Virus record (IMG/VR): IMGVR_UViG_3300046804_000816
Span: 1 to 64,000 of that record
DNA from: a virus
Direction: 5' to 3' (one strand)
Length of the DNA stretch: 64,000 bases
Below, one piece after another: positions 12,584 to 44,820 of the stretch (position 1 is the first letter of the stretch; each line of letters begins with the position of its first letter). Position numbers and translations under genes: made by a program. The notes under the pieces were generated by a model. It saw only the letters and a program-made list of their open reading frames with translations, did not search any database and was not told the origin of the DNA.

Positions 12584-12591
12584 TTCAAATC

Positions 12592-12666: not shown

Positions 12667-12686
12667 AATATCGCGAAGGACTAAAT

Positions 12687-12770
12687 ATGTTATTCGCGAT
12701 AGGCTTCCTTCTTTGGATGCCATTGACTGTAGGACTCGTCCTATTTCTATATAATGTTATCATCAATTAA
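12687..12770 (+). CDS. 27-aa hydrophobic peptide
   Basis: AAGGA SD; MLFAIGFLLWMPLTVGLVLFLYNVIIN. Confidence 0.4.
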   Translation: MLFAIGFLLWMPLTVGLVLFLYNVIIN

Positions 12771-12779
12771 GGAGAACAT

Positions 12780-13295: not shown

Positions 13296-13301
13296 TGGTT
13301 G

Positions 13302-13333
13302 GAGTCGCGTATATAATCGCGGCTCTTTTATTT
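13302..13333 (+). terminator. intrinsic terminator
   Basis: GAGTCGCG/CGCGGCTC stem followed by a T-rich tail. Confidence 0.6.
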
Positions 13334-13336
13334 CTA

Positions 13337-13385
13337 GCGACTGGGTCAATGCTCTGGTGGGCGTTTGGCCCAGTCGTTTTTCTTT
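13337..13385 (+). terminator. second intrinsic terminator
   Basis: GCGACTGGGTCAA/TTGGCCCAGTCGT stem followed by TTTTCTTT. Confidence 0.7.
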
Positions 13386-13493
13386 ATGGGATGCCACTAT
13401 GCGGCTAGATTATAAAACGGCTAATCTTAGGTCCTAAAACTAGCCGGTTTGAAACGTAACAAAATCTGTTACGATCGTAACGAAAATAAGGCC

Positions 13494-20127: not shown

Positions 20128-20601
20128 ATGAATAACATGAATCTTGATGAAGTGCGTGAGTTCATTCGGAACTGCTCCGAATCAACTTGCATTTATATTG
20201 GTGCAGACTCCGAGAGATACAGGGGTAAGGATGACTTATGGTACGCAGACTACACAGTCGCCGTTGTGGTTCACTATGACGGGGCTCGTGGTTGCAAAGT
20301 TTTTGGATCCGTATCCACAGAGCGCGATTTCGATCAGCGTAAAAATAAGCCCGCATATAGGTTGATGAACGAGGTCTATAAAGCGGCACAGCTTTATATG
20401 GATCTCGCAGAAGCAATCGGTGATCGTCATGCGGAAGTTCATCTAGATATCAATCCAGACATTATTCACGGAAGCAGTTGTGTCGTTCAGCAGGCTATCG
20501 GTTATATTCGCGGCACATGCAATGTGACCCCTAGAGTAAAGCCGCAAGCATTCGCAGCCAGTTATGCAGCAGACAGAATGAAGGAGCTGTTAGCGTCATG
20601 A
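20128..20601 (+). CDS. RNase H-like YkuK family protein
   Basis: IYIGADS, RLMNEV, EVHLDINPD and KPQAFAASYAAD motifs. Confidence 0.85.
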   Translation: MNNMNLDEVREFIRNCSESTCIYIGADSERYRGKDDLWYADYTVAVVVHYDGARGCKVFGSVSTERDFDQRKNKPAYRLMNEVYKAAQLYMDLAEAIGDRHAEVHLDINPDIIHGSSCVVQQAIGYIRGTCNVTPRVKPQAFAASYAADRMKELLAS

Positions 20602-21191
20602 GTTATACATTCGAGAATTTCGTTCTTACATACGACAACTTTTTCACACCAGAAGAATGTCAATCGGTCATCGACTGTTTCCATCGTTTTGAGAATGCTG
20701 GATTTACCATGAGCAGACAAGCTCAGGGAAGCAAATCGCACGAAAAGAAAGACGATCAATTATATGTAACATCTTTGCTTTCTACTCAAGAATTTGATAT
20801 TTCAGATCTAGAACCATTTAATTTATTTAACCGTAAGTTCTGGAATGAAGTCTATCCTAAGTATGCAGAGAAGTATAGCATAATCGGCGGATTCCCTCAT
20901 CACACGATCCGACTCATTAAACTACAGAAAACTGAAGTTGGTGGCGGTTATCATGTATGGCATTGCGAAGATGATAATCCAGGAAATATGCGTCGTATGA
21001 TGACATTCATTCTATATCTGAATAATGTGAGTGATGGAGGAGAAACTGAATTTCTTTACTATCCCAAGAGAATCGCGCCACAGGCTGGACGACTGATTCT
21101 GTGGCCTGCGGGATATACCCACACTCATCGTGGCAATCCACCAATCAGCAACACGAAGTACATTCTTACTGGTTGGGTAGAAATGAGCTGA
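20598..21191 (+). CDS. 2OG-Fe(II) oxygenase (prolyl 4-hydroxylase-like)
   Basis: GYHVWHCE, YLN...GGETEF and THTHRGNPP..KYI.TGW motifs. Confidence 0.9.
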   Translation: MSYTFENFVLTYDNFFTPEECQSVIDCFHRFENAGFTMSRQAQGSKSHEKKDDQLYVTSLLSTQEFDISDLEPFNLFNRKFWNEVYPKYAEKYSIIGGFPHHTIRLIKLQKTEVGGGYHVWHCEDDNPGNMRRMMTFILYLNNVSDGGETEFLYYPKRIAPQAGRLILWPAGYTHTHRGNPPISNTKYILTGWVEMS

Positions 21192-21194: not shown

Positions 21195-22097
21195 ATGAAA
21201 ATTCTTGTTTCGTTTTCCGGTGGATTTGATTCCACTTACATTATGTACAAATTGTTGACAGAAACGACACATGAAATTACGGCTGTATGCTTTTATGGTT
21301 ATCATAAAGATATTTGTATGAGCGCTCAGCCGTCTTTGAGTAAGATTCAGCCCAATCTCGATATAATAGTGCAAGAGCTGAAAAAGATCAGAGACTTCAC
21401 GTTTATCACGAAAGAAATACAACGCGAAGAATTTACTGAAGACAATGCGTTTCTATCGCGCTATATTGTAAAAGACAAGCTGCATGCAATCGCTAGCGGT
21501 CCTTTAGATTATTTTATTTGGTGGGCGATTCCAGGAGTTAATGCTGGATCGTACGATACTCTCGTGCATGGCATTTCCTGGGAACAAATGCGCAAGAAAT
21601 ATAAAACGACAGATGGAACTGAAGGAAGTCCGAAGCACGTCGAAGCAGAAAAGAAACTGAAACAATATGCGCCCACTGCTCGTATGTGGTTTCCATTATT
21701 GAATCATGATTTTCATTATCAGTTTAACAGATGGCATATCTTTAAGTACATGCCAGAAAACCTGCAGAGATATTGCATTTCTTGTGCGTCGCCAACTGTC
21801 AATGAAGAATCAATAAAAGAACCGTGTGGATATTGTTTCAAATGTTTGTGGGATAAGTTCACTAAGAATGTCGTTGAACACGATGTGATGAACGCGGAAC
21901 AGCTTGAAGAATATCGCTATAAGAAAGCATTAGAGTATGGTGGCGGAAATGGCATTACAGCCACTATGCGTTATTGGATTCCCGTAGAAATGCAAGCCCA
22001 AAAATCGTATTATCATGTTGATGGACTTGTTCTCGACACCAAAGAAAAGGTGCAGCAATATATGCAGAACAAGAACTTCGACTATCTTGTGAAATAG
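21195..22097 (+). CDS. QueC-like PP-loop ATPase
   Basis: N-terminal SFSGGFDS PP-loop; C-terminal SC...PCGYCFKC zinc site. Confidence 0.65.
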   Translation: MKILVSFSGGFDSTYIMYKLLTETTHEITAVCFYGYHKDICMSAQPSLSKIQPNLDIIVQELKKIRDFTFITKEIQREEFTEDNAFLSRYIVKDKLHAIASGPLDYFIWWAIPGVNAGSYDTLVHGISWEQMRKKYKTTDGTEGSPKHVEAEKKLKQYAPTARMWFPLLNHDFHYQFNRWHIFKYMPENLQRYCISCASPTVNEESIKEPCGYCFKCLWDKFTKNVVEHDVMNAEQLEEYRYKKALEYGGGNGITATMRYWIPVEMQAQKSYYHVDGLVLDTKEKVQQYMQNKNFDYLVK

Positions 22098-22664: not shown

Positions 22665-23645
22665 ATGACTAAACTAAAGATCACTGGATTGAAAGAATCT
22701 TCTACAACAATCGATCCTACAGATAATGGCACATTTGAACATATTGGTGCTAAAGGTGGCACTGAGCAGATGTACCAAGGATTGATTCAGCGTTTGCCAC
22801 CTGAACTTGTCGATAAGTTCAATATCATTTGTTCTCGTGTCCGTGCAGTAGATCCAAACAAAAAGAACATTCTTTGGTTGCACGACACATGGGACGATCC
22901 AGAATCACAACATTTGAAGGATCTGAAAAGCCTTGAGCGATTCGAAAAACTCGTATTCGTATCACACTATCAGCAGTCCACTTACAATCTTGGGCTTGGA
23001 GTGCCCTATTCAAAGGGCATCGTACTACAGAACGCGATCGTCCCTATTGAAGAACACGTCAAACCTAAAGGAACGATTAATCTCATTTATCACACGACGC
23101 CGCATAGAGGATTAGAAATCCTTGTTCCGGTCGTCGAGTTCTTGGCTAGTCGTGGCGTAGACTTTCATCTAGACGTCTATTCTTCGTTCAAGATCTACGG
23201 ATGGGAACAACGCGACGAGCCGTACAAGGCTCTGTTCGATCGCTGCAATCGTCATCCGAACATTACGTATCATGGATATCAGCCAAACTCTGTTGTGCGT
23301 GAAGCACTGAAGAAAGCGCACATCTATGCGTATCCTAATATCTGGCCAGAGACGAGCGCAATCTCTGTGATCGAAGCGATGAGCGCTGGTTGTACGGTAA
23401 TCTGTCCTAACTTCGCTGCTCTTCCTGAAACGTGCGCCAACTTCGCAGTCATGTATGGCTGGGATGAAAACGCCAATGTCCACGCAAATCAGTTCGCTGG
23501 CATTCTTAAAATGGTCATCGACGGATTCTGGGATGACCATAATCAGGATAGGCTAAGGCTACAGAAAATCTACTTCGACAACTTCTATAATTGGGATCTT
23601 CGGGCTATTCAATGGCGCGATTTCTTGGGCTCGATTAGTTCTTGA
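22665..23645 (+). CDS. GT-B glycosyltransferase (GT4-like)
   Basis: GGTE, WLHD, TPHRGL and YPNIWPETSAISVIEAMSAG motifs. Confidence 0.88.
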   Translation: MTKLKITGLKESSTTIDPTDNGTFEHIGAKGGTEQMYQGLIQRLPPELVDKFNIICSRVRAVDPNKKNILWLHDTWDDPESQHLKDLKSLERFEKLVFVSHYQQSTYNLGLGVPYSKGIVLQNAIVPIEEHVKPKGTINLIYHTTPHRGLEILVPVVEFLASRGVDFHLDVYSSFKIYGWEQRDEPYKALFDRCNRHPNITYHGYQPNSVVREALKKAHIYAYPNIWPETSAISVIEAMSAGCTVICPNFAALPETCANFAVMYGWDENANVHANQFAGILKMVIDGFWDDHNQDRLRLQKIYFDNFYNWDLRAIQWRDFLGSISS

Positions 23646-26052: not shown

Positions 26053-26243
26053 TGATTTACGTTCTAATCGTTGTTTCATACTTTGCTGGCGCAGGTGGCA
26101 ACGGTCAGACCGTGACTTTCCAAGAATTCAATAATAGAGAAGCGTGTCAATACGCCGCAACTGTAATCCGTGAGAAGAAGATCTCAGGTTATACCTGGGA
26201 TAATTATAAGTTAACATGCGTCCCGAAAGGAGAAATCAAGTGA
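26052..26243 (+). CDS. small hypothetical protein
   Basis: QEFNNREAC...CVPK motif. Confidence 0.6.
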   Translation: MIYVLIVVSYFAGAGGNGQTVTFQEFNNREACQYAATVIREKKISGYTWDNYKLTCVPKGEIK

Positions 26244-26311
26244 CGTACAAGGTAACCGCACGATTCGTTGAATATCCATATGTACAATCTTTTGACAACA
26301 AGGAGTCTGTT

Positions 26312-26797
26312 ATGAATGAGCAAGTTAATATGAATGATCTTGAGCAAGAACTCGTTTCCGTTATCAATCAGTCGACCAACAAGTCGATGGATATTGATCT
26401 TAATCGCTATAAGAACTTCGTTATGACTGTGACGAGTGAGCAGAGTCGCGTGATGGGCTCGTTCATTGAGCGTGCGGCTACGATTCACTATGGCAGTCAG
26501 CATCTGAATGTTCCGCTGCTTATGACTGCGCTGATTGGTCTTACGAGTGAGTCTGGCGAAGCGCAGGAAATCATGAAGAAGGTCTTGTTCCAGGGTAAGC
26601 CGTACACTGACGAGACGCGTGTTCTGCTTAAGAAGGAGCTTGGCGATGTTATGTGGTACTGGATGAACGCATGCAATGCTCTGCAGCTCGATCCTAATGA
26701 GGTTATCTCTCACAATGTCGATAAGCTGCAAGCCAGATATCCTGGTGGAACATTCAATGCGTTCTACTCCGAGAATCGCAAAGAAGGAGATGTTTAA
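26312..26797 (+). CDS. mazG: MazG-like nucleotide pyrophosphohydrolase
   Basis: GLTSESGE..EI.KK, KKELGDVMWY and NVDKLQARYP motifs. Confidence 0.88.
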   Translation: MNEQVNMNDLEQELVSVINQSTNKSMDIDLNRYKNFVMTVTSEQSRVMGSFIERAATIHYGSQHLNVPLLMTALIGLTSESGEAQEIMKKVLFQGKPYTDETRVLLKKELGDVMWYWMNACNALQLDPNEVISHNVDKLQARYPGGTFNAFYSENRKEGDV

Positions 26798-27228: not shown

Positions 27229-27807
27229 ATGAATACAGCCTTTATCATTGGTAACGGTACGACCCGTAAAGGGTTTGATCTTTCCAGACTCAAGTCGTAT
27301 GGAACAATCTATGGATGCAATGCGCTTTATCGTGATTTCCCTGATCACTCTATTCCTGATTTCCTCGTTGCTATTGATGACGGTATTATTGCAGAGATAG
27401 AAGGAAGCGCATTTCCTTCTAGACGTGTGATCATTCCGCCTATGGATGAGCGATGGGAACCGGCTGAATGTAATATTGGTCGTCCTCGTAGCAATGCAGG
27501 CATGAATGCAATGCGCGAAGCTATCAAGGCTGGATACGATCAGTTGATCTGTCTTGGCTTTGATTTCATGATCGAAGACGACAAGCAACTACTGTCGAAT
27601 ATGTACGATGGTACGGAAAACTACGGACCCAGCACTCGTGCGAACGCAGCTGATAACCCTGGTCGCCTGAACTATATGCAATGGCTTGTATCTAAGAATC
27701 CAGAAGTGGACTTCATTTATATTTTTCCTAGCGACTTGACAATTAGCAAGATTCATGGTAAAAATGTATATTACAACTCTTACGAAAACCTTCTGAAGCA
27801 TACATAG
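27229..27807 (+). CDS. Rossmann-like protein (sialyltransferase/MptE-like fold)
   Basis: IIGNGTTR, YGCNALYRD, PDFLVAID and LGFDF motifs. Confidence 0.6.
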   Translation: MNTAFIIGNGTTRKGFDLSRLKSYGTIYGCNALYRDFPDHSIPDFLVAIDDGIIAEIEGSAFPSRRVIIPPMDERWEPAECNIGRPRSNAGMNAMREAIKAGYDQLICLGFDFMIEDDKQLLSNMYDGTENYGPSTRANAADNPGRLNYMQWLVSKNPEVDFIYIFPSDLTISKIHGKNVYYNSYENLLKHT

Positions 27808-27833: not shown

Positions 27834-29219
27834 ATGGTCAAGAAAATCTTTTTAGAAAAGTCTTATCGCGATCAGATGGATCATGTTCTGGGTAAGTTCC
27901 TGGATCATGATTGCTATGATCTTGTGCTTACTGAAGACACTGATGTTTATGAGCCATTGACGCCACTACAGATTATGATGGGCGAAACACATAGCGAGAA
28001 GAACATTCTGTGCAAGTTCCGTAAGAATGTGTTTCCTAAAGAGATGACCGATAAGGCTTATACTGCGCTTCGTTCCGGCGCGCTGATGTCAGACAATCGT
28101 GGTCTTGCTGCAGGCATCGAGCGCGATACTGAGTTTCAGAAACTGCCAGACGGTCAGGGGCAGCGTCGTTGGGTTACGCAACGCGAGAAAGCTGTTCTTC
28201 AGTATATCATGGATGGCAGTCCTAAGTCGATTGCTGGTGAAGATCGGCTGCTGGAAATCTACGAGACTACATCTAACAAACCTTTGCAAGGACGTGGCTC
28301 TGGTGCTAACAAGTCTCTCGCAGAAATTGGTGCTGGTGCTATCTGGATCGTGCATAAGACGACTGAGTTCAAGTTCGACGACTGGTTCTTTTCCATCAAA
28401 GATCTTTCTCCCGAAGAACGTAGAGACAAAGCGCAGTATGTTCTCGATGAACTGATTTCTGCTTCAACGTATGCTAATGGCGTTCGTTCAGGCGTCGGTG
28501 GCTTCATGGATCGCTATCCGCGTATTCCATTCTGTCGTGAGACTGGCTGGAGTGCGAATCACAAAGAACTGTATGAAGACGCGCTTCCGCTGTTCCATGC
28601 TGCTGCGAATGTTTACAAGAACGAGCTTCCCGTAAGATACATGGGTCAGATGGAAGCTATGGAGCGTCTTGGTCCTGATTGGCAGATTGGTCATACGCCT
28701 TACACAACGCTCACTATCAATCGCGACTTCCGCACAGCAGCGCATCGCGACGTTGGTGATCTCTGCGAGTCCTGGGAAACGCATGAGAATCCGCGTGGAT
28801 TTAGCAATTTGCTCGTACTAGATAATGGAAAGAACTACAACGGATTTTATCTGTGCTTCCCTGAGTTCCGCGTTGCAGCAGATATTCGTGCTGGCGATTT
28901 GATTATGATGAACGCGCATCGTATTCATAGCAATAGTCCTGCATTTGATTATGAAGAAGGCTTTGAGCGTATGTCGGTCGTGATGTACTTCCGCGAGTCC
29001 ATGCTTAATTGTGGCTCTAAGAAGTACGAAGAAACGAGAAAGCGTTTTGTTTATTCTCGTCGCGATAATAAAGATCATCCTCTCTGGCATACAGGTTGGA
29101 ATGGTGTCTCACCAAATATGTGGGAAACTGAAGAATGGGCTAACTTCTTGGGTAACAGCGGATTCCCAGAGGAAGCAAATGAAATCCTACATAATCTTGG
29201 TCTAGAGCCAGCGCACTAA
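27834..29219 (+). CDS. TET/JBP-family 2OG-Fe(II) nucleobase dioxygenase
   Basis: YTTLTINRDFRTAAHRD (HxD), GDLIMMNAHRIHSN (distal His), ERMSVVMYFRE (2OG-binding Arg) and DRYPRIPFCR. Confidence 0.82.
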   Translation: MVKKIFLEKSYRDQMDHVLGKFLDHDCYDLVLTEDTDVYEPLTPLQIMMGETHSEKNILCKFRKNVFPKEMTDKAYTALRSGALMSDNRGLAAGIERDTEFQKLPDGQGQRRWVTQREKAVLQYIMDGSPKSIAGEDRLLEIYETTSNKPLQGRGSGANKSLAEIGAGAIWIVHKTTEFKFDDWFFSIKDLSPEERRDKAQYVLDELISASTYANGVRSGVGGFMDRYPRIPFCRETGWSANHKELYEDALPLFHAAANVYKNELPVRYMGQMEAMERLGPDWQIGHTPYTTLTINRDFRTAAHRDVGDLCESWETHENPRGFSNLLVLDNGKNYNGFYLCFPEFRVAADIRAGDLIMMNAHRIHSNSPAFDYEEGFERMSVVMYFRESMLNCGSKKYEETRKRFVYSRRDNKDHPLWHTGWNGVSPNMWETEEWANFLGNSGFPEEANEILHNLGLEPAH

Positions 29220-29232
29220 CAAAGGATTTGTA

Positions 29233-30792
29233 ATGTATTGTGTGATTCCAGCTGCGGGTCGTGGTGTTCGTTTCCATGAGCTCGGAAAGCACTACCCCAA
29301 ATGTGTTCTTCCGTTTCAAGATGTACCAATTATCGTTCACAACATTAGACTGGCTCTCGATTCGGGAGCCAGAGAAGTATGTATCGTAGTCGGACATCAA
29401 GGAAACAAGATTCGCGAAATCGTTGGGATGTACTTTCCTGAAGATCCACGAATTGTGTTTGAAGAATACAGAACAGCCGCAGATAGAGAAGGACCTGGCG
29501 TCTCGATCTACTGCGGCATCCCTTCAGATATCAAAGAAGAACCTGTTCTCGTTCTTCTCAGCGATATCGTCATTACTTCTCCCACGCTAAATTCATACAG
29601 AACGTCCTGGATTAGCACGCAGAAAGTTGCTGATTGGGAACGTTGGTGTATGGCTGAAATAAAAGAAGACGAAATCGTTGCATTTCATGATAAGCCAAGA
29701 GATATGCCACCAACAGATCGTGCTGTCAGTGGCGTTTACTATTTCCAGAACGGTGAGTTCTTTAGACATTGCTTGATTGATGCAATTCATGGTACGCGCG
29801 AAGGAGAAGTACAAATATCTTCTGCGATGTCGCGTTACATGAAGCAAGAAAAGATTCACAGCAAGAATCTTGATATCATTGACTTTGGCACGCTGGAAGA
29901 ATATCTTCAGAACAGAAGCGTTCCCAATTCGCGCAGTTTCAATAGTCTCTTTCCCTCCAGCGACGGCACGACTATCACGAAGACTTCTGTCGTTCATCCA
30001 GACAAGATTCATGCAGAAGCGAACTGGTACGATAATCTACCGACTCCCATCAAAGTGATGACGCCACGCATCTTCGACAAGAAGTTGTATGGCGATCGTC
30101 CGACTTACACGATGGAGCGCGTCGATAGTCCTACGTTGCGCGAGCTTTATCTGTATCTCGAATCTGATCCTATCTTCTGGGCTGAGATCTTTACGAAACT
30201 GTTTGATCTTACCGACAAGTTCAAATTCTATTTCAAGCCAGGCAAGCCACAGTTCTTCAAGAAGATTGCTGAGAAAACCCATCAGCGATGCTTGCTGATT
30301 GAGAAAGATAGTCCTAGATGCCAGGACGTTGACTTTATAGAAAAGTTCACGAAGATGGCTGAAGACGGCGAGTTTGATATATTCCCCGATTCGCTGTTTC
30401 ACGGCGATCTGTGCTTCTCGAATGTGTTCTTTCATCCAGGCAGCAAACAGATCAAGCTGATCGACCCGCGCGGTGATGCGTACGGTAACATTCTGTATGA
30501 TTTGGCTAAGATTACACATTCAGCCTATTATCCATACGACTATGTGGACGCGGAGCTTTATCTAAATAAGAATGGCGAGACGTTGTACTTTGATAGTGGT
30601 AAAGAAATTGTTCGCCAAGCATACAAGAAACTATTCGTAGCCAAATATGGCGAATCTGCTTGGCGCATTAATTTGTTCTTGACAGCGTCTCTATTTTTGA
30701 GTATGATACCACTTCACTCACACAACAAGGTGAATCAAGAGTTATTCTATGCCCTCTATCGTAAGGCGGCCGCAGACAGCGGAATTGTTTGA
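29233..30792 (+). CDS. sugar-phosphate nucleotidyltransferase fused to an APH/choline-kinase-like domain
   Basis: N-terminal IPAAGRGVRF...PKC and SGVYYF; C-terminal RSFN, FHGDLCFSN, IDPRG and YDLAK. Confidence 0.85.
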   Translation: MYCVIPAAGRGVRFHELGKHYPKCVLPFQDVPIIVHNIRLALDSGAREVCIVVGHQGNKIREIVGMYFPEDPRIVFEEYRTAADREGPGVSIYCGIPSDIKEEPVLVLLSDIVITSPTLNSYRTSWISTQKVADWERWCMAEIKEDEIVAFHDKPRDMPPTDRAVSGVYYFQNGEFFRHCLIDAIHGTREGEVQISSAMSRYMKQEKIHSKNLDIIDFGTLEEYLQNRSVPNSRSFNSLFPSSDGTTITKTSVVHPDKIHAEANWYDNLPTPIKVMTPRIFDKKLYGDRPTYTMERVDSPTLRELYLYLESDPIFWAEIFTKLFDLTDKFKFYFKPGKPQFFKKIAEKTHQRCLLIEKDSPRCQDVDFIEKFTKMAEDGEFDIFPDSLFHGDLCFSNVFFHPGSKQIKLIDPRGDAYGNILYDLAKITHSAYYPYDYVDAELYLNKNGETLYFDSGKEIVRQAYKKLFVAKYGESAWRINLFLTASLFLSMIPLHSHNKVNQELFYALYRKAAADSGIV

Positions 30793-31141
30793 AAACAGCC
30801 TTGTGGTCGATCTAGATCACACACTATGCGTTGGCGATCTTAACATACACAGTTCAGTCGACCGATACGCCAGCGCAGAACCAATCACAGAAACAATCGA
30901 GAAATTGCGTGAAGCGCATAGTAAAGGCTGGTACATTACCATTCTTACTGCGCGCCATATGCGCACAACGAACAACGACGTTGAGTATGCGTTCAACAAG
31001 CTAGGCAAAATCACTGAAGACTGGCTTGATAGACACAACGTTCCGTTCGATCAACTTGTGTTTGGTAAGCCATATGGTATGTGGTATATCGACGATAAAG
31101 CAATGACATTGGATACATTTGTAAATGACTTCGAGCCCTAA
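30749..31141 (+). CDS. HAD-superfamily phosphatase (capsule-biosynthesis type)
   Basis: DLDHTL (DxDxT), LTARHM and FGKP...YIDDKA motifs; the true start may be later. Confidence 0.85.
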   Translation: MPSIVRRPQTAELFENSLVVDLDHTLCVGDLNIHSSVDRYASAEPITETIEKLREAHSKGWYITILTARHMRTTNNDVEYAFNKLGKITEDWLDRHNVPFDQLVFGKPYGMWYIDDKAMTLDTFVNDFEP

Positions 31142-31955
31142 GATTATAATCACTACGTTCATGCGCGAAGACAAGCAGAAAGCTGTCTTCCAGATTCCTG
31201 CGTCGTTGCACGAGCACGTCTATATGTTCACGCGAGTAGATCGCGTCGATGAGCTGCGTAAGTATGTTCCTGAAACGATTCGCATCATCGGCAATCCTAT
31301 GGATATCGACGGCATCGCAGATATTCGTCAGCGTTGCATCGAGCAAGTTCCGAAGGGAAAGGTGTGGGTCATCGACGATCTCTGCACCTTTGGATGGCGC
31401 GACGATAATCTAAAACAGTACAACGATATGGACAAGCAGAAATGGCTAAGTCTGTATAACAAGATGAACGATATGCTCGACGAGTATATGCAGGTAGGTA
31501 TCTCAGCTCGCGGCGGCAACAATCATGTGACAGATCCCTTCAAGGAAGTCGGTCGTGCATACACCACGTATGGATTGCGCACAGACTGGATGGAGCGCGA
31601 AGGTATTCGTTTCGACGGTATGTATCAGCAGAATCCGAACGTAAAGCTCTACGAAGATTACTGGATCACGCTCTCGATGCTGACTAAGGGATTCAAGAAC
31701 GCGATCATCTACAACTTCTTCTTCAATTATGTTCACAACAACACTGGAGGTAATTCAACATTCAGAACGCTAGAACTACAAGAACAAGCAGCGTATGAAT
31801 TGCAAAAGCATTTCCCTCAGTTCGTTACAGTAGAAACTAAAGAAGGAACATGGGGAAAGATGGGTATGGAGAATCGTAAAGAAGTTCGCATACAGTGGCA
31901 GAAAGCATATCAAAGCTCACAGTTCACTAACAATCTCGAATCGTTCTTCTCGTAA
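31125..31955 (+). CDS. TET-associated GT-A glycosyltransferase (TAGT/GREB1-like)
   Basis: GIADIRQ, VIDD, EDYWITLSMLTKG, GGNSTFRT and RKEVRIQWQKAY motifs. Confidence 0.75.
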   Translation: MTSSPKIIITTFMREDKQKAVFQIPASLHEHVYMFTRVDRVDELRKYVPETIRIIGNPMDIDGIADIRQRCIEQVPKGKVWVIDDLCTFGWRDDNLKQYNDMDKQKWLSLYNKMNDMLDEYMQVGISARGGNNHVTDPFKEVGRAYTTYGLRTDWMEREGIRFDGMYQQNPNVKLYEDYWITLSMLTKGFKNAIIYNFFFNYVHNNTGGNSTFRTLELQEQAAYELQKHFPQFVTVETKEGTWGKMGMENRKEVRIQWQKAYQSSQFTNNLESFFS

Positions 31956-31966: not shown

Positions 31967-32326
31967 ATGTCTTCAATGGATTTCATCGTCGGAGTACTCG
32001 TCTCGGCTGCATCGTGGATGATTGGTATCGCGCTCGCACGATACGTGATGCGTAAATATCTTGGATGGGGCGACACAGCTACGGAAATCAGTTCTACGCA
32101 TACAGACGACATCGTCGACTTCGACAAAAGCGAGCGCCCGTACATTCCTATTCGTATTGTTAAAGAACATGGACAGTACTATGCGTGGTTCGCGCTGAAT
32201 GATTCGTTCATCGGTCAGGCTGATAAGTTATATGAGCTGCGCCAAATGGCCCACGACAATATACTAAAACAGATCGGGCTTAGACTTGAGTTTGACATCG
32301 ATTTGAAGCAAAAGAAAAAGCCTTGA
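31967..32326 (+). CDS. membrane-anchored hypothetical protein
   Basis: N-terminal TM helix; AAGGA SD. Confidence 0.6.
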   Translation: MSSMDFIVGVLVSAASWMIGIALARYVMRKYLGWGDTATEISSTHTDDIVDFDKSERPYIPIRIVKEHGQYYAWFALNDSFIGQADKLYELRQMAHDNILKQIGLRLEFDIDLKQKKKP

Positions 32327-32684: not shown

Positions 32685-32714
32685 CAGGGGCTTAGTCGCT
32701 AAGTCCCTGTTTTT
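32685..32714 (+). terminator. intrinsic terminator
   Basis: CAGGGGCTTAG/CTAAGTCCCTG stem followed by a T tract. Confidence 0.75.
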
Positions 32715-34347: not shown

Positions 34348-34574
34348 CCGACGAAGAAATCGTAAAAGATCGTTTCGTGAAGTTCATCTACGAAACGATG
34401 GAACACATCGATCGTGGTACGCCTGGCGACAACGCCAGATTCATCACGAACGTGACTTTCGAAGTTATACTGAAAACGTGGGAAGACGTACACGGCGCAG
34501 AGAAGATGGCTGAATATTTCTATCAGATCGCGGACTCGCTGGTCGATAGGTCTAATCTGGAGAATCTGTTTTGA
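34344..34574 (+). CDS. hypothetical protein
   Basis: Coupled ORF. Confidence 0.55.
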   Translation: MTDEEIVKDRFVKFIYETMEHIDRGTPGDNARFITNVTFEVILKTWEDVHGAEKMAEYFYQIADSLVDRSNLENLF

Positions 34575-35149
34575 TTATTGGCATCTGTGGATTGATCGGC
34601 TCGGGCAAAGGTACCGTAGCTGACATTCTAGAAGAGCATCATTGTTTCGATAAAGTATCGTTCGCAGATACGCTGAAGAACGCAGCCGCAACGATCTTTA
34701 GATGGGATCGTGCTATGCTCGAAGGCGATACCAAGGACTCGCGTGAGAAGCGCGAACAAGTCGACGAATGGTGGGCTGAGCGTCTTGGTATTCCCGACTT
34801 CTCGCCTCGTTATCTGCTTCAGTACATGGGCACCGAAGTGATGCGAAACAATCTCCATCCCGATATCTGGGTTCTATCGCTGGAACGTAAGATTATCGAG
34901 TGTGGTCCTGGCGACTATGTTGTGCCCGACGTTCGCTTTCCTAACGAGATCCGTATGATCAAGCGGAATGGCGGAAAGGTATGGCACGTTCAGCGTGGCG
35001 AGTTGCCTGATTGGTTTGGGCAGAATCCTTCGCACATTCACGCGAGCGAGACTTCGTGGAACAACGAGATATTCGACGCCACGATTTACAATAATGGCAC
35101 AATCGACGATCTAAAACTAACTGTTGACAACCTGCTCAAAGCGTGGTAG
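34571..35149 (+). CDS. deoxynucleoside monophosphate kinase (T4 gp1-like)
   Basis: GLIGSGKGT P-loop, SFAD.LK, LQYMGTE, DVRFPNE and HASE motifs. Confidence 0.92.
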   Translation: MIIGICGLIGSGKGTVADILEEHHCFDKVSFADTLKNAAATIFRWDRAMLEGDTKDSREKREQVDEWWAERLGIPDFSPRYLLQYMGTEVMRNNLHPDIWVLSLERKIIECGPGDYVVPDVRFPNEIRMIKRNGGKVWHVQRGELPDWFGQNPSHIHASETSWNNEIFDATIYNNGTIDDLKLTVDNLLKAW

Positions 35150-38100: not shown

Positions 38101-38631
38101 ATGAACAGATTTATTCTCGATAAAGATCCGCGCACTGCGGCTGAGTATCACTGCGACAAACACGTCGTCAAGATGATTCTCGAAGAGTCACAGATGCTAT
38201 CGACGGCGCATCGTATCATTGACGGCGTAGAAATTGTTGGCAAGTCTAAGACTGGTCGCAACGTGAAACGCTGGGTTCTGAACGATACTCGCAACGATAA
38301 GATCTATCAGGCTACACACGTCAACCACCCTTGCACCCAATGGTCGATGCAGACGAACAACAACTACACGTGGTCTGTGTTGTTATTGCGTTACTTGCTC
38401 GATGAGTATAAGTATCGCTACAACAAAGAACATAAATGCGAAGAGTTGTATCCTGTTCTAAGTCTGCTTCCCAGGAATATTAATATCGGACCGCTGACGC
38501 TGTTTCCGCAGGCTATGCCTGACGATTGTAAGCGCGATAATCCTGTAGACGGCTATCGCACATACTACATAGAACATAAGAAGCGATTCGCAAAGTGGAC
38601 AGGTCGTGAAATTCCAGATTGGTTTGTATGA
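38101..38631 (+). CDS. pyrimidine-dimer DNA glycosylase (DenV-like family)
   Basis: HCDKHVVKMILE..QMLSTAH, THVNHPC and PQAMPD motifs. Confidence 0.8.
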   Translation: MNRFILDKDPRTAAEYHCDKHVVKMILEESQMLSTAHRIIDGVEIVGKSKTGRNVKRWVLNDTRNDKIYQATHVNHPCTQWSMQTNNNYTWSVLLLRYLLDEYKYRYNKEHKCEELYPVLSLLPRNINIGPLTLFPQAMPDDCKRDNPVDGYRTYYIEHKKRFAKWTGREIPDWFV

Positions 38632-39236
38632 AAAAGAATGATCATGTACTACATCCCCACATTCTAGTGGGTTCTGTATTCTCACCAGAAGAAATAGAAA
38701 AGATCCACGGATTGGTGGAGCAGTACGATCTGTATCATGGAAGGATCGGTGGGAAAGACACGCCGATTGAAGAAATCGAAAAGGTAAGAATATCAAACAT
38801 TCGATTCTTCGAAAGAAATGGCAAAGCCGTATTTGATACGGAGTGGATCTTTGATCGCGTTGATGATGTTATCAAGCAAGTCAACGAAATGTATTTCGAC
38901 TTCGAACTATACTCGTATCAGTCGTTTCAATATACGACGTATGAAGGAGAACGTAAGGGAACGTACAACTGGCACATGGATAGTTTCACTGGAAGAACGA
39001 AAGAAGAAGATGAACGATATCCAAGAAAACTATCAATGTCGGTTTTTCTAAACGAAGATTATGAAGGCGGAGAATTTGAAGTCTGCACGGGTAGTCAAGA
39101 AAGAGCTAAGAAGTTCAAAGGAAAACCCGGAGACGCAATTGTGTTCCCTTCCTTTATGATTCATCGAGTAGCCCCCGTGACCAAAGGAACTAGAAAGTCA
39201 TTGGTTGTTTGGGTTGAAGGGCCTAGATGGAAATAA
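38628..39236 (+). CDS. 2OG-Fe(II) oxygenase
   Basis: YNWHMD, RKLS, YEGGEF and HRVAPVTKGTRKSLV motifs. Confidence 0.9.
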   Translation: MKKNDHVLHPHILVGSVFSPEEIEKIHGLVEQYDLYHGRIGGKDTPIEEIEKVRISNIRFFERNGKAVFDTEWIFDRVDDVIKQVNEMYFDFELYSYQSFQYTTYEGERKGTYNWHMDSFTGRTKEEDERYPRKLSMSVFLNEDYEGGEFEVCTGSQERAKKFKGKPGDAIVFPSFMIHRVAPVTKGTRKSLVVWVEGPRWK

Positions 39237-42924: not shown

Positions 42925-43533
42925 ATGAAAGTCTATATCGGTCCGTATCGTCTCGATCACATTCGAATGTATTCTTTCTTCGACGATTATATGTCGTGGA
43001 AGCATAAGAAACCATACTGGTCTATTGACGACGAAGAATACACCAAAATCGATAAGCTCCTAGAAAAGTTCTTCGATATTCTGCAGGAAATTGCAGACGC
43101 AACTATCAACAAGATTCTTGCAAAACTGGAGCGCAAGATCAAAGTTCGCATAGATCCTTACGATGTGTGGAGTATGGATAATACTCTGGCATATATTATT
43201 CATCCTATGCTCGTTCAGCTCAAAGAGCAAAAGCACGGCGGACCGTTTGTAGCTGATGAGGATGTTCCTGAGCATCTTCGTAGCGTTTCCGCTCCTCCCA
43301 AGGAAAATGAATGGGATATTGACGCATTTCACTTTGATCGTTGGGATTGGGTTCTTGACGAAATGATCTGGACGTTCAAGACTCTGAATGAAGACTGGAG
43401 TAGTCAGTTCTACACTCCTTCAGGTAAATTCATGGAAGGTGAATTCGACGCTGAAGGTCGTCAGAAAATGCAAGATCGTATCGACAACGGACTTCGTCTC
43501 TTTGGCAAATATTATCAATCACTGTGGGACTAA
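42925..43533 (+). CDS. conserved phage hypothetical protein
   Basis: MKVYIGPY, IDPYDVWSMD.TLA and GLRLFGKYYQSLWD motifs. Confidence 0.75.
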   Translation: MKVYIGPYRLDHIRMYSFFDDYMSWKHKKPYWSIDDEEYTKIDKLLEKFFDILQEIADATINKILAKLERKIKVRIDPYDVWSMDNTLAYIIHPMLVQLKEQKHGGPFVADEDVPEHLRSVSAPPKENEWDIDAFHFDRWDWVLDEMIWTFKTLNEDWSSQFYTPSGKFMEGEFDAEGRQKMQDRIDNGLRLFGKYYQSLWD

Positions 43534-43535
43534 AC

Positions 43536-44348
43536 ATGAGCTTCTATGAAAACTGTGGGAACGATAAGCATCTAAGTATTATCGCTGGTCCTTGTGTGTT
43601 TGAGTCTAAGGATCATGCAGTCGAGACTGCGACTGCTCTGAAAGAAATGTGTGACACATTAAAAGTCAACTTCATTTATAAGACCTCTTTCGATAAAGCG
43701 AATCGAAGCTCTGCGGATAGTTACAGAAGTGCGGGTTTCGACGAGGCGTTTTACGGAATGGAGGCCGTCCGTGCTCGTGGCATCGAGGTTATCACGGACG
43801 TTCACGATCCATGGCATTGTGAACAAGTGCAGGCTGACATTCTTCAGATCCCTGCGTTCCTTTGTCGTCAGACTGATCTCATTCGCGCAGCAGCAGAAAG
43901 CGGTAAGCCTGTAAACGTGAAGAAAGGTCAGTTCCTCTCGCCACAAGAGATGAAGAACGTAGCCGAGAAGCTAAAGAAGTTTGGCTGCACTCAGTATATG
44001 TTCACTGAACGTGGCACAACGTTTGGTTATAACAATCTCGTCGTTGATATGCGTTCATTAGAAATCATGAAGCAATACACAGACAACGTTGTTATGGATT
44101 GTACGCACGCAGTGCAGCTTCCTGGCGGCAACGGCACGAGTTCTGGCGGACAGCGTCAGTTCGTCACTACGATGGCTCGCGCTGCTGTTGCTGTTGGCGT
44201 TTCTGCATTATTCATGGAAGTTCATAACGATCCTGACAACGCGCCTAGCGATGGTCCGAATATGATTCGTCTTGACAACTTCGAGAAAGTATTATATGAT
44301 TTAGTAGAGTTGGATATTGTATCTAAACGGAGTTTGATTCGTGGGTAA
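43536..44348 (+). CDS. kdsA: 3-deoxy-D-manno-octulosonate 8-phosphate synthase
   Basis: IAGPC, SFDKANRSS, QIPAFLCRQTDL, KKGQF, ERG..FGYNNLVVDMR and SDG motifs. Confidence 0.95.
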   Translation: MSFYENCGNDKHLSIIAGPCVFESKDHAVETATALKEMCDTLKVNFIYKTSFDKANRSSADSYRSAGFDEAFYGMEAVRARGIEVITDVHDPWHCEQVQADILQIPAFLCRQTDLIRAAAESGKPVNVKKGQFLSPQEMKNVAEKLKKFGCTQYMFTERGTTFGYNNLVVDMRSLEIMKQYTDNVVMDCTHAVQLPGGNGTSSGGQRQFVTTMARAAVAVGVSALFMEVHNDPDNAPSDGPNMIRLDNFEKVLYDLVELDIVSKRSLIRG

Positions 44349-44820
44349 CATTACAGGAAAAGTCTGGGGTGATACGAGCGTTCTCATTCAGAACGCAGTC
44401 GTCGAACTTCACAAGATTAACGTCAACGCAGGATTTAAATGCTCGGAGCATAAACATGCACACAAGTGGAACGGATTCTACGTCATCAGCGGAGTGCTGG
44501 AAATCCATGTACGAAAGAATGATTACGCCCTCACTGACGTCACTGTTCTTAGAGCCGGTGATTTTACCACTGTGCGTCCTGGCGAGTATCATTGGTTCAA
44601 ATGTGTTGAAGATTGTGTCGCATTAGAACTCTATTACCCCGAGACACTCTCTGAAGATATTCAACGCCGCAGCGTTGGTGGAGCAGTAGAAACCGAGTCG
44701 CCCTGCGTAAAGATCTGTAAGTTGGATCCCGTAACAGGGCGCTGCATCGGATGTGATCGCACCATTGAAGATATCCAAGACTACGGTCTCAAGCATACAC
44801 CCGAAGGATACGATAAGTGA
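44341..44820 (+). CDS. cupin fused to a DUF1289-like Cys domain
   Basis: CSEHKHAHKWNGF and PGEYH cupin motifs; C-terminal SPCVKIC.LD...CIGC.RT..DI. Confidence 0.75.
   Translation: MGNITGKVWGDTSVLIQNAVVELHKINVNAGFKCSEHKHAHKWNGFYVISGVLEIHVRKNDYALTDVTVLRAGDFTTVRPGEYHWFKCVEDCVALELYYPETLSEDIQRRSVGGAVETESPCVKICKLDPVTGRCIGCDRTIEDIQDYGLKHTPEGYDK

What the first reader, a model, noticed from the sequence alone, without database searches (positions are those of the whole stretch)
27834..31955. Four-gene candidate DNA hypermodification cassette: TET/JBP dioxygenase, self-made NDP-sugar and TET-associated glycosyltransferase
Seen: four tightly spaced, co-oriented genes. They encode a 2OG-Fe(II) enzyme with TET/JBP signatures (TAAHRD, IHSN, ERMSVVMYFRE), a nucleotidyltransferase fused to an APH-like kinase, a DxDxT HAD phosphatase, and a TAGT/GREB1-like GT-A glycosyltransferase. 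Established: phage TET/JBP enzymes hydroxylate 5mC (or T, as JBP does for base J) in DNA, and associated GTs glycosylate the product. Kinase -> phosphatase -> nucleotidyltransferase is the logic of the ADP-heptose pathway (HldE/GmhB) for activating a sugar phosphate. Inference: the phage makes its own, probably non-glucose, NDP-sugar (pentose or heptose) and adds it post-replicatively to 5hmC or 5hmU. Arabinose-5-P, also the substrate of the KdsA encoded in this window, is one candidate precursor. No C5-methyltransferase or dCMP hydroxymethylase is in the window while thyX is, so a thymine-based, base-J-like product is possible.
Basis: partly seen in the sequence, partly recalled or inferred. 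Interest (0 to 1): 0.92.

Follow-up and report, generated by a model that had tools for sequence, protein, structure and literature searches.

The report
Phage DNA sugar-decoration cassette (TET-based)
An uncultured freshwater T4-like phage carries four adjacent genes that most likely oxidise thymine in its own DNA and cap it with a sugar the phage activates itself; this kind of pathway has recently been described, and here it appears in a new combination of known parts.

Summary
Four tightly packed, co-oriented genes encode a TET/JBP dioxygenase, a nucleotidyltransferase fused to an APH-like kinase, a small HAD phosphatase and a TAGT-type GT-A glycosyltransferase. All four have intact catalytic motifs.

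The kinase/transferase and phosphatase pair is a distant homologue of the phage UDP-arabinose enzymes AfhE/AfhF. It shares their domain order and gene order.

The glycosyltransferase ends in the same tail (NLESFFS) as the related phage's DNA polymerase, which points to docking on the sliding clamp and action on DNA.

In sibling phages the slot after the same TET gene holds other modules instead: epimerase plus TAGT(s), or an amino-acid:DNA transferase plus P-loop DNA kinase. The latter is the canonical thymine-hypermodification kit. Seven complete genomes with this TET family have no C5-methyltransferase. Thymine is therefore the likelier substrate, giving 5hmU and then glycosyl-5hmU.

The contig is about 46% complete, and its closest near-complete relatives encode an intact C5-methyltransferase in the missing part.

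The sugar is unresolved (pentose such as arabinose, or heptose), and the link to KdsA is not supported.

This is a new variant of a known kind. The scan has noted many similar TET+GT cassettes on other DNA.

The parts
27229..27807 (+). Conserved 192-aa protein of unknown function, directly upstream of the dioxygenase gene
   Evidence: No Pfam hit even at E<=1; phrog_30607 covers the N-terminal 60 aa only. It is kept at 75-78% identity next to the TET gene in sibling contigs whatever module follows. Whether it belongs to the pathway is unknown.
27736..27765 (+). Sigma-70-like promoter match just upstream of the dioxygenase gene (weak evidence)
   Evidence: TTGACA-18-AAAAAT, 10 of 12. The total count of such matches in the region is no higher than in shuffles, so this is only a candidate.
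27834..29219 (+). TET/JBP-type 2OG/Fe(II) DNA-base dioxygenase (5mYOX), 461 aa, with a ~230-aa N-terminal extension; probable thymine (possibly also 5mC) hydroxylase
   Evidence: Pfam PF12851 3e-15 and phrog_24024 4e-105. H304/D306/H365 and R379 are invariant in 40 homologues. AF2 model pLDDT 86; top PDB folds are CcTet, NgTet1, TET2 and CMD1.
29233..30792 (+). Bifunctional sugar-1-phosphate nucleotidyltransferase (aa 1-~226) fused to an APH-like sugar kinase (aa ~236-519); AfhE-like
   Evidence: Pfam NTP_transferase/NTP_transf_3 plus a weak APH hit; RmlA/GalU/MurU-type hits. It is 23% identical over 472 aa (E 3e-12) to Bas46 'UDP-arabinose biosynthesis' protein bas46_0146. G9, R13, K23, D111 and H390-G-D392, N397, D411 are invariant, including in Bas46 and DLP6.
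30749..31141 (+). Small HAD-superfamily sugar-phosphate phosphatase (AfhF-like; EcbF/BcbF 'capsule biosynthesis phosphatase' subfamily)
   Evidence: PDB 1xpj 7e-16 and 9iqw 1.6e-4. TIGR01689 3e-19, below its cut-off. 28% identity (E 9e-9) to the Bas46 phosphatase. D21, D23, T67, K107, D115 and D116 are invariant. It is adjacent to the fusion gene in 72 of 80 cellular loci.
31125..31955 (+). TET-associated GT-A glycosyltransferase (TAGT), probable DNA 5-hydroxymethylpyrimidine glycosyltransferase
   Evidence: PF20691 28.5 bits (cut-off 27.5) and phrog_842 2e-42. R14, D84-D85 and E177-D178 are invariant, matching the R...DDD...EDY/F motif that Pyle et al. report. AF2 model pLDDT 91; top PDB hits are TarP and TarS.
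31932..31952 (+). C-terminal tail NLESFFS of the glycosyltransferase: probable sliding-clamp docking peptide
   Evidence: It closely matches the C-terminus of the DNA polymerase of the collinear relative G001 (SLEDFFS). It is kept in GT orthologues down to 39% identity (DLP6, L093). It is absent from all the sugar-nucleotide enzymes. A gp45 clamp gene is present in G001.
32685..32709 (+). Intrinsic-terminator-like hairpin, the first strong one downstream of the cassette
   Evidence: 11-bp stem with 6 GC pairs, followed by TTTTTATT.

Best explanation
The four genes form a post-replicative DNA hypermodification cassette of a T4-like phage. The proposed steps are as follows.

Step 1 (inferred from family, fold and context): the TET/JBP dioxygenase uses Fe(II) and 2-oxoglutarate to hydroxylate the C5-methyl group of thymine in phage DNA, giving 5-hydroxymethyluracil. 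It may also act on 5-methylcytosine if the missing half of the genome supplies a C5-methyltransferase, as its nearest relatives do.

Step 2 (inferred by homology to AfhE/AfhF): the C-terminal APH-like kinase domain of the fusion protein phosphorylates C1 of a host sugar phosphate. Arabinose-5-P is the best-supported guess, heptose-7-P the main alternative. The small HAD phosphatase removes the distal phosphate. The N-terminal nucleotidyltransferase domain then converts the sugar-1-phosphate into an NDP-sugar.

Step 3 (inferred): the TAGT GT-A enzyme transfers that sugar to the hydroxymethyl group on DNA. It probably does so while docked on the gp45-type sliding clamp through its polymerase-like C-terminal tail.

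The product would be a base-J-like glycosyl-5hmU that shields the genome from host nucleases. In sibling phages the sugar module is an exchangeable unit in a fixed slot behind a conserved dioxygenase gene.
For: All four catalytic centres are intact and conserved.

Fold evidence: the dioxygenase model matches TET structures and the glycosyltransferase model matches TarP. TarP is the PDB match that Pyle et al. report for their proven GT-A DNA glycosyltransferases.

Linkage: the four genes stay adjacent across 27-45% identity and in different orders, in DLP6, L093 and S-CBWM1.

Slot swapping: the same position holds epimerase+TAGT, epimerase+2 TAGT, or AADT + P-loop kinase in siblings with 75-79% identical TETs. 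On the TET tree the module label changes at least 18 times. Sister pairs with SH-aLRT 100 include L043 (NTase-kinase) / L044 (AADT) and L090 (AADT) / L093 (NTase-kinase+GT).

Base: PF00145 is absent from 4 complete isolate genomes and 3 complete IMG/VR genomes with terminal repeats that carry this TET family. G010 has both an AADT module and a C5-MTase, so the methyltransferase looks independent of the pathway. O'Toole et al. 2026 show that phage 5mYOXs without a neighbouring C5-MT oxidise T, and that they associate with GTs, AADTs, kinases, APH and HAD domains.

Sugar genes: same architecture and gene order as AfhE/AfhF. An APH/HAD/nucleotidyltransferase/GT set from a metavirome contig was shown to put heptose on 5hmC in E. 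coli (Pyle et al.).

DNA as acceptor: the GT tail matches the polymerase tail. Such tails are found only on the DNA-acting enzymes of these cassettes.

DLP6, which has this cassette, is listed as having restriction-resistant DNA (PMC8228603).
Against: No chemistry has been done on this phage or on any isolate with this cassette.

The nearest near-complete relatives, G001 and G002, encode an intact C5-MTase, so 5mC cannot be excluded for this clade.

DLP6 was tested with enzymes whose sites contain no T (HpaII, HaeIII, SmaI, ApaI). A T-only modification would not obviously block them. The paper's result sentence is garbled in the held text, so this point cannot be settled here.

Identity to AfhE/AfhF is only 23% and 28%. 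No arabinose-5-P isomerase (SIS) gene is found in this contig or its relatives, unlike RB69/DLP3. The known arabinosyltransferases are GT-B, not GT-A.

The dioxygenase of this contig's own sub-clade lacks the clamp-type tail.

The Pfam TAGT score is marginal.
Confidence: 0.72

Rival explanations
1. The pathway is the same, but the modified base is cytosine. A C5-methyltransferase encoded in the missing half of the genome methylates specific sites, the TET enzyme makes 5hmC, and the GT glycosylates it, as in the Burke 2021 / Pyle 2024 systems.
For: G001 (90% complete, collinear, cassette proteins 76-87% identical) and G002 carry a PF00145 gene at E 3e-53 and 2e-52. The G001 copy has motifs I, IV, VI and VIII intact. 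All sugar products proven so far for metavirome cassettes were on 5hmC. Clade C2 TET89 and 5mYOX97/176 act on both T and 5mC.
Against: The methyltransferase lies about 65 kb from the cassette, not next to it as in the proven systems. Seven complete genomes with this TET family lack any C5-MTase. Near-identical TETs serve AADT/P-loop kinase modules. G010 combines an AADT module with a C5-MTase.
Confidence: 0.17
2. The sugar genes and the GT remodel a host surface glycan (LPS, capsule or teichoic-acid-like polymer) or glycosylate a protein. They sit beside an independently acting dioxygenase only by chance of genome organisation.
For: The fusion-kinase/HAD pair is a common cellular polysaccharide module: the two are adjacent in 72 of 80 cellular loci with no TET, and in H. 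parainfluenzae they lie within a Glf/GT2 cluster. The GT's best PDB matches are wall-teichoic-acid GTs. The phage carries other glycan genes: GT8-like, KpsS/C-like, GT4 and kdsA.
Against: Adjacency to TET is conserved across very divergent phages and different gene orders. The slot alternates with bona fide DNA-modifying modules. The GT is in the TET-associated family and carries the polymerase-type clamp tail. kdsA is uncoupled from the cassette.
Confidence: 0.06
3. The fusion enzyme activates a non-sugar alcohol in the manner of LicC/LicA (for example choline, ethanolamine or a polyol), and the transferase adds a phospho-alcohol or polyol to DNA rather than a glycosyl group.
Against: A dedicated phosphatase is not needed in that logic, yet one is almost always adjacent. 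The characterised relative AfhE acts on a sugar phosphate. The transferase is a GT-A with the DxD-type motif.
Confidence: 0.05

Closest known systems
Phage UDP-arabinofuranose pathway AfhE/AfhF (E. coli phage HY126; RB69 gp52:53/gp51; Acinetobacter phage DLP3 gp82/gp81), as summarised in Lee et al., NAR 2026 (PMC13326640)
   Same: A bifunctional enzyme with the nucleotidyltransferase at the N-terminus and an APH-like kinase at the C-terminus. It is followed by an overlapping small HAD phosphatase whose best structural relative is 1xpj. Homology is detectable (23% and 28% identity; E 3e-12 and 9e-9). The setting is a T4-like phage and the purpose is DNA glycosylation.
   Different: In those phages the acceptor is 5-hydroxycytosine, made before replication by a ThyA homologue. 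Their transferases are GT-B, and each phage encodes its own arabinose-5-P isomerase. Here the handle comes from a TET/JBP enzyme acting on DNA, the transferase is a GT-A TAGT, and no SIS isomerase is found. The sugar here is not established.
Metavirome 5mYOX/TET + GT biosynthetic clusters (Burke et al. 2021, PMC8256090; Pyle et al. 2023/2024, doi 10.1101/2023.12.21.572611), especially 'contig 53' (HAD-APH fusion + cytidylyltransferase + GT-B, giving heptosyl- and diheptosyl-5hmC)
   Same: A TET-type dioxygenase plus a glycosyltransferase plus the kinase/phosphatase/nucleotidyltransferase logic for making the donor sugar. The GT-A here has the R...DD...ED motif and the TarP-like fold described for their GT-A enzymes.
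   Different: Those clusters have an adjacent C5-MTase and were assayed on 5hmC. Contig 53 fuses HAD to APH and uses a GT-B. Here the fusion is NTase-APH, the HAD stands alone, the GT is GT-A, no MTase is nearby, and the host genome is a ~160-kb T4-like phage.
Phage thymine dioxygenases (5mYOX clades C1/C2; 5mYOX97, 5mYOX176/ParB) of O'Toole et al., PNAS 2026 (PMC13229309)
   Same: No neighbouring C5-MT. Association with GTs, AADTs, P-loop kinases, GATase, and APH/HAD domains. Post-replicative action on DNA.
   Different: The characterised enzymes are about 280-300 aa. This family is 430-470 aa, with an N-terminal extension of ~230 aa, and no ParB homologue was found.
Base J pathway of kinetoplastids (JBP1/2 + JGT)
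   Same: Thymine is converted to 5hmU by a TET/JBP enzyme on DNA, and a GT-A then adds a sugar.
   Different: Base J uses UDP-glucose from general metabolism, has an epigenetic role and is eukaryotic. Here the donor sugar is made by dedicated phage genes and the role is presumably anti-restriction.
ADP-heptose pathway HldE/GmhB
   Same: The reaction order kinase, then phosphatase, then nucleotidyltransferase on a sugar phosphate.
   Different: HldE has a ribokinase-type kinase and a cytidylyltransferase-type adenylyltransferase (own knowledge). Here the kinase is APH-like and the transferase is RmlA/GalU/MurU-like. This is an analogy, not membership.

Membership tests
TET/JBP (5mYOX) dioxygenases, Pfam PF12851 | Profile match above the curated cut-off | tested here: met
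   56.2 bits against a cut-off of 34.9, aa 233-388.
TET/JBP (5mYOX) dioxygenases, Pfam PF12851 | HxD...H iron triad and the 2OG-binding arginine | tested here: met
   H304-R-D306, H365 and R379 are invariant in 40 homologues.
TET/JBP (5mYOX) dioxygenases, Pfam PF12851 | Double-stranded beta-helix fold closest to the DNA-base dioxygenases | tested here: met
   Model pLDDT 86. Foldseek top hits are CcTet (E 4e-8), NgTet1, TET2 and CMD1.
TET/JBP (5mYOX) dioxygenases, Pfam PF12851 | Oxidises 5-methylpyrimidine in DNA | not testable with these tools
   Needs expression and nucleoside LC-MS.
Phage T-dioxygenase subclass (O'Toole et al. 2026) | No co-located C5-methyltransferase | tested here: met
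   None in the 76-kb contig. None in 7 complete genomes with this TET family. One is present, but about 65 kb away, in G001 and G002.
Phage T-dioxygenase subclass (O'Toole et al. 2026) | Association with thymidine-hypermodification genes (AADT, P-loop DNA kinase, GATase) or GTs | tested here: met
   25 of 63 classified loci have AADT near the TET gene. PF18724 and PF18751 are confirmed in L044 and L061.
Phage T-dioxygenase subclass (O'Toole et al. 2026) | ParB-like activator (ParB-dependent subclass) | tested here: not met
   No PF02195 match in this contig, G001, G005, G006 or DLP6. If this is a T-dioxygenase, it is ParB-independent.
Phage T-dioxygenase subclass (O'Toole et al. 2026) | Clusters with 5mYOX89/97/176 in their similarity network or tree | not tested
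   Their sequences and supplements were not available.
AfhE/AfhF UDP-arabinose pathway | Bifunctional enzyme: N-terminal nucleotidyltransferase, C-terminal APH-like kinase | tested here: met
   Domain hits. Full-length alignment to Bas46 bas46_0146. Catalytic residues of both domains are invariant.
AfhE/AfhF UDP-arabinose pathway | Adjacent 1xpj-like HAD phosphatase | tested here: met
   1xpj 7e-16 and 9iqw 1.6e-4. Same gene order with overlapping junction as in Bas46.
AfhE/AfhF UDP-arabinose pathway | Phage-encoded arabinose-5-phosphate isomerase (SIS domain) | tested here: not met
   No PF01380 match in this contig, G001, G002, DLP6 or S-CBWM1. The host enzyme could supply the substrate.
AfhE/AfhF UDP-arabinose pathway | Product is UDP-arabinofuranose | not testable with these tools
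   Identity of 23-28% is too low to transfer specificity. A related enzyme set gave heptose in E. coli.
TAGT (PF20691) / phage GT-A DNA glycosyltransferases | Profile match above the cut-off | tested here: met
   28.5 bits against 27.5, which is marginal. phrog_842 at 2e-42. Many homologues carry a precomputed PF20691 annotation.
TAGT (PF20691) / phage GT-A DNA glycosyltransferases | GT-A fold with R...DD(D)...ED(Y/F) motifs | tested here: met
   R14, D84-D85 and E177-D178-Y179. Model pLDDT 91, TarP/TarS top hits.
TAGT (PF20691) / phage GT-A DNA glycosyltransferases | Genomic association with a TET/JBP gene | tested here: met
   In the same cassette here and in DLP6, L093, S-CBWM1 and more than 10 siblings.
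T4-type clamp-binding proteins (gp43-like C-terminal tail) | C-terminal peptide like that of the phage's own DNA polymerase | tested here: met
   For the GT: NLESFFS, against SLEDFFS in the G001 polymerase. Not met for this contig's TET, which ends LGLEPAH. Binding to the clamp itself is untested.
HldE/GmhB ADP-heptose enzymes | Ribokinase-type kinase, cytidylyltransferase-type adenylyltransferase and GmhB (HAD-IIIA) phosphatase | tested here: not met
   The kinase is APH-like and the transferase RmlA/GalU-like. HAD-IIIA scores only 25.8 bits against a cut-off of 44.6.

The most novel reading that the evidence does not exclude
The cassette makes a pentosyl (arabinofuranosyl-type) or heptosyl 5-hydroxymethyluracil, a bacterial-virus counterpart of base J built with a phage-activated sugar and installed by a clamp-riding glycosyltransferase. 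The slot behind the dioxygenase would then be an arms-race hot spot, where closely related T4-like phages exchange sugar modules and amino-acid modules on one common 5hmU platform. No glycosylated 5hmU was reported from a phage virion in the papers I read.
Probability: 0.35. Interest if true: 0.7.

Novelty: new variant of a known kind. Interest (0 to 1): 0.5.

Why it matters
DNA hypermodifications decide which restriction, CRISPR and other nuclease defences a phage can escape. They also supply enzymes for DNA labelling and epigenetic sequencing.

This cassette joins two pathways that were described separately. One is TET-type oxidation of DNA, the other an AfhE/AfhF-type route to an activated sugar. 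It joins them in a widespread group of freshwater T4-like phages. Two cultured relatives, DLP6 and S-CBWM1, carry the same gene set, so the predicted sugar-bearing thymine could be checked at once by mass spectrometry.

Near-identical dioxygenases are paired with sugar modules in some phages and with amino-acid modules in others. This is a clear natural example of modular exchange of DNA-decoration chemistry. The polymerase-like tail on the transferase suggests that modification is coupled to the replication clamp.

Tried and rejected
- Megablast of the cassette against the phage collection found nothing; protein-level searches were needed.
- A sequence search of the PDB with the dioxygenase gave only noise; the fold search worked instead.
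- ParB (PF02195), SIS isomerase (PF01380) and TGT/DpdA (PF01702) searches in this contig and relatives were all negative. ThyA-type (PF00303) was negative in G001, G002, DLP6 and C48C1 but positive in Cr30. I therefore dropped a ParB-dependent mechanism, a self-supplied arabinose-5-P and a deazaguanine pathway. A pre-replicative hydroxymethylase is ruled out only for the relatives searched, because PF00303 was not searched in this contig.
- The neighbours of the G001 C5-MTase have no homologues in this contig. This showed that the methyltransferase region is simply not covered by the contig.
- I considered the HAD protein as a polynucleotide-kinase-type DNA 3'-phosphatase (phrog_415, 2e-11). 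I rejected this because 1xpj, TIGR01689 and AfhF match better, and because it sits next to the fusion kinase in 72 of 80 cellular loci.
- I considered the PHROG label 'phosphoheptose isomerase' for the HAD protein and rejected it as a mis-annotation: the protein has HAD motifs and no SIS domain.
- The protein atlas search on the upstream 192-aa protein gave only unnamed viral clusters.
- The supplements of O'Toole et al. are not held, so clade placement against 5mYOX97/176 was not possible.
- The careful tree search did not finish in time. The tree cited is the quick IQ-TREE version. I left out 18 loci with too little flank to classify, as well as duplicate sequences.

Full report
**Observation.** The window is the first 64 kb of a 76,273-bp IMG/VR viral contig that CheckV rates as about 46% complete. 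It belongs to a T4-like phage: gp32, gp59, RNase H, class II RNR, PhoH, ThyX and baseplate genes are present.

They are joined by a 13-nt gap, a 44-nt overlap and a 17-nt overlap.
- 27834-29219 (461 aa) matches Pfam Tet_JBP well above its cut-off.
- 29233-30792 (519 aa) has an RmlA/GalU-type nucleotidyltransferase domain at aa 1-226 and a weak APH hit in its C-terminal half.
- 30749-31141 (130 aa) has no Pfam hit, but it matches phrog_1238, TIGR01689 ('capsule biosynthesis phosphatase', below cut-off) and PDB 1xpj (7e-16).
- 31125-31955 (276 aa) matches TAGT just over its cut-off and phrog_842 at 2e-42.

The quoted motifs are all present.

**Are the enzymes intact?** In 40 homologues of the dioxygenase, the iron triad H304/D306/H365 and R379 are invariant. 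Its AlphaFold model (pLDDT 86) finds CcTet, NgTet1, human TET2 and CMD1 as its best PDB matches.

In the fusion protein, the nucleotidyltransferase signature (A8-G9, R13, K23, D111) and the kinase catalytic loop (H390-G-D392...N397, D411) are invariant. This holds even when DLP6 and the E. coli phage Bas46 homologue are included. The HAD motifs D21xD23, T67, K107 and D115-D116 are invariant too.

The glycosyltransferase keeps R14, D84-D85 and E177-D178(-Y179). These are the R...DDD...EDY/F motifs that Pyle et al. describe for their phage GT-A DNA glycosyltransferases. Its model (pLDDT 91) matches TarP and TarS best, and TarP is the PDB match those authors report.

**Linkage.** The four genes are adjacent, in the same order, in more than ten related IMG/VR contigs, with proteins 62-100% identical.
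- IMG/VR contig L093 and the isolate Stenotrophomonas phage DLP6 have them in the order GT-fusion-HAD-TET and GT-HAD-fusion-TET respectively, at 28-50% identity. In DLP6 the HAD gene is unannotated.
- The cyanophage S-CBWM1 has TET-TAGT-HAD-nucleotidyltransferase-APH kinase, with the last two unfused.

Adjacency that survives this much divergence and rearrangement argues for a functional unit.

**What the sugar genes resemble.** Lee et al. (NAR 2026, PMC13326640) summarise the phage UDP-arabinofuranose route. AfhE is a bifunctional enzyme with an N-terminal nucleotidyltransferase and a C-terminal APH-like kinase. It phosphorylates arabinose-5-P at C1. The HAD phosphatase AfhF, whose best structural relative is 1xpj, removes the 5-phosphate. 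The N-terminal domain of AfhE then makes UDP-Araf.

The fusion protein here aligns over 472 residues with the Bas46 homologue (23% identity, E 3e-12). The HAD protein aligns with the Bas46 phosphatase (28% identity, E 9e-9). That phosphatase has the same sequence in the aligned region as PDB 9iqw. The gene order, fusion followed by an overlapping small phosphatase, is the same in both phages.

Those enzymes have different folds for the kinase and the transferase.

The pair is also a widespread cellular module. In 72 of 80 bacterial and archaeal loci that carry the fusion gene, a homologue of the HAD gene lies next to it, and none of these loci has a TET gene. In Haemophilus parainfluenzae the pair sits in a polysaccharide cluster with UDP-galactopyranose mutase and GT2 genes.

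**Which sugar is made cannot be settled.**
- Identity to AfhE/AfhF is low.
- No SIS-type arabinose-5-P isomerase is found in this contig, G001, G002, DLP6 or S-CBWM1.
- An APH/HAD/nucleotidyltransferase set from a metavirome contig produced heptosyl-5hmC in E. coli (Pyle et al.).

I put arabinose or another pentose at roughly 45%, heptose at 20% and something else at 35%.

kdsA is kept in sibling G003, whose slot holds an epimerase module, and it is absent from DLP6, which has this cassette.

**Which base?** The absence of a C5-methyltransferase from the window says nothing. The contig is collinear with positions 86 kb to 157.6 kb, and on across the record's ends to 11 kb, of G001, a 157.6-kb relative rated 90% complete. 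G001 and G002 each encode a C5-MTase. In G001 it lies at 51 kb, in the part this contig lacks, and has motifs I, IV, VI and VIII intact.

Other evidence favours thymine.
- Four complete isolate genomes (DLP6, Cr30, C48C1, S-CBWM1) and three complete IMG/VR genomes with terminal repeats carry this TET family and have no PF00145 gene.
- In a census of 79 loci, the commonest neighbour of this TET family is an amino-acid:DNA transferase (PF18724). It is accompanied by a P-loop DNA kinase (PF18751) and sometimes by GATase, amidoligase-like and GNAT genes. This is the canonical thymidine-hypermodification set.
- On a quick maximum-likelihood tree of 63 TETs, the neighbouring module changes at least 18 times. 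Sister pairs with SH-aLRT 100 carry different modules: L043 fusion-kinase against L044 AADT, L090 AADT against L093 fusion-kinase+GT, and L066 GT against L086 AADT.

Near-identical dioxygenases thus feed either amino-acid or sugar chemistry. This is most simply explained if they all make 5hmU.

G010 has both an AADT module and a C5-MTase, so the methyltransferase looks independent of the pathway. This fits O'Toole et al. (PNAS 2026). They show that phage 5mYOXs without a neighbouring C5-MT oxidise T, and they list GT, AADT, kinase, APH and HAD domains among the neighbours.

No ParB homologue is present. This family is also about 150 aa longer than the characterised enzymes.

I estimate T at about 65-70%, 5mC at about 17%, and the rest for both or other.

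One unexplained point remains. DLP6 DNA is listed as restriction-resistant. The panel used included enzymes whose sites contain no T, but the result sentence is garbled in the held text.

**Is DNA the acceptor?** Following a lead from earlier notes of this scan, I compared C-termini.
- The glycosyltransferase ends ...NNLESFFS.
- The DNA polymerase of G001 ends ...SSLEDFFS.
- The tail is kept in GT orthologues down to 39% identity (DLP6 LSSFFN, L093 LDDFFG).
- It recurs on TETs and TAGTs of related cassettes, for example L014 SLEDFFA and C48C1 SLEEFFV.
- None of the enzymes that make sugar nucleotides (fusion kinase, HAD, epimerase, Glf) has it.

In T4 and RB69 the polymerase tail binds the gp45 clamp (own knowledge), and G001 encodes a gp45-type clamp. 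The TET of this contig's own sub-clade lacks the tail (it ends ...LGLEPAH). Clamp binding itself is untested.

**Module exchange.** A conserved TET gene lies upstream and a conserved gene (homologue of 31967-32326) lies downstream. Between them, siblings with 75-79% identical TETs carry different modules:
- this fusion/HAD/TAGT module;
- an NAD-dependent sugar epimerase plus one or two TAGTs, which is the 'subclass II' layout of Pyle et al.;
- an unknown gene plus AADT plus P-loop kinase.

C48C1 carries an unknown gene and a UDP-galactopyranose mutase in this position.

This GT gave no tblastn match to the siblings' TAGT genes at E<=1e-4, nor theirs to this GT in the locus census at E<=1e-6. 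The transferase therefore appears to be exchanged together with its donor-sugar genes.

**Comparison with what is known, and verdict.** The kind of system is known. TET/5mYOX plus GT clusters are described, with proven glycans on 5hmC including heptose and Kdo. Phage thymine dioxygenases are described. So is the AfhE/AfhF route.

What differs here is the combination: an N-extended TET family in T4-like phages, an AfhE/AfhF-type donor module, and a GT-A TAGT with a polymerase-like tail. The acceptor is probably thymine-derived.

The scan has noted many TET+GT cassettes on other genomes. I therefore class this as a new variant of a known kind, of moderate interest. Its main value is that two cultured phages carry the same gene set and could be tested directly.

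Promoter-like and terminator-like sites (27736-27765 and 32685-32709) are only consensus matches.

Noticed in passing
L001 (Stenotrophomonas phage DLP6, KU682439.2) locus 4907-5287: An unannotated 126-aa HAD phosphatase gene lies between AAY80_028 (the GT) and AAY80_029 (the fusion kinase). The TET gene of DLP6, Cr30 and S-CBWM1 is annotated as 'SNF2 DNA repair protein', which looks like a mis-annotation inherited from JBP2.
   Followed up: partly
L003 (Phage C48C1, OQ984149.1) locus 8323-10355: Directly after its TET gene this phage has a 344-aa unknown protein and a UDP-galactopyranose mutase (PF03275, 6e-52). This hints at a galactofuranose-based DNA modification.
   Followed up: no
L002 (Caulobacter phage Cr30) locus 9985-13432: An amino-acid:DNA transferase (PF18724, 1e-52) lies 2 kb downstream of the TET gene, and an annotated inositol-1-phosphate synthase follows shortly after. 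Cr30 also has a ThyA-type gene (PF00303, 4e-113).
   Followed up: no
window 51795-52499 (- strand): A 234-aa protein in the baseplate/tail region ends ...TLEGMSDFF. The tail resembles the polymerase/GT tails and is conserved in G001 (...GMADFF).
   Followed up: no
window 20598-21191 and 38619-39236: Two further 2OG-Fe(II) oxygenases (PF13640; phrog_61) are encoded elsewhere in the window. Their substrates are unknown.
   Followed up: no
window 7492-11619, 22665-23645 and 43524-44820: Other glycan genes are present: a methyltransferase-like gene, a GT8-like gene, a KpsS/KpsC-like 'Capsule_synth' protein, a GT4, KdsA (NF003543, 6e-113) and an adjacent cupin/DUF1289 protein. kdsA occurs independently of the TET cassette type in relatives.
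   Followed up: partly
window 34571-35149 and 26216-26797: A T4 gp1-like dNMP kinase (PF21448) lies 2.6 kb downstream of the cassette and a MazG pyrophosphatase about 1 kb upstream. Such enzymes accompany pre-replicative base replacement in other phages, yet no ThyA-type hydroxymethylase was found in the near-complete relative G001.
   Followed up: partly
window 21195-22097: A 300-aa protein has only an N-terminal PP-loop/QueC-like match (phrog_1550, 2e-6). No TGT/DpdA gene is present in the contig or its relatives.
   Followed up: partly
PDB 9iqw versus L112 6662-7063 (phage Bas46): The PDB entry titled 'Capsule biosynthesis protein' (9iqw) has, in the aligned region, the same sequence as the RB69-type phage phosphatase of the UDP-arabinose pathway. 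A structure of an AfhF-type enzyme therefore exists under an uninformative name.
   Followed up: partly
L184 (Haemophilus parainfluenzae MAG) 6544-9197: A cellular version of the module (238-aa unknown, 131-aa HAD, 523-aa kinase-containing protein) lies inside a polysaccharide cluster with Glf, a GlfT2-like GT, GT2s and an acyltransferase.
   Followed up: partly
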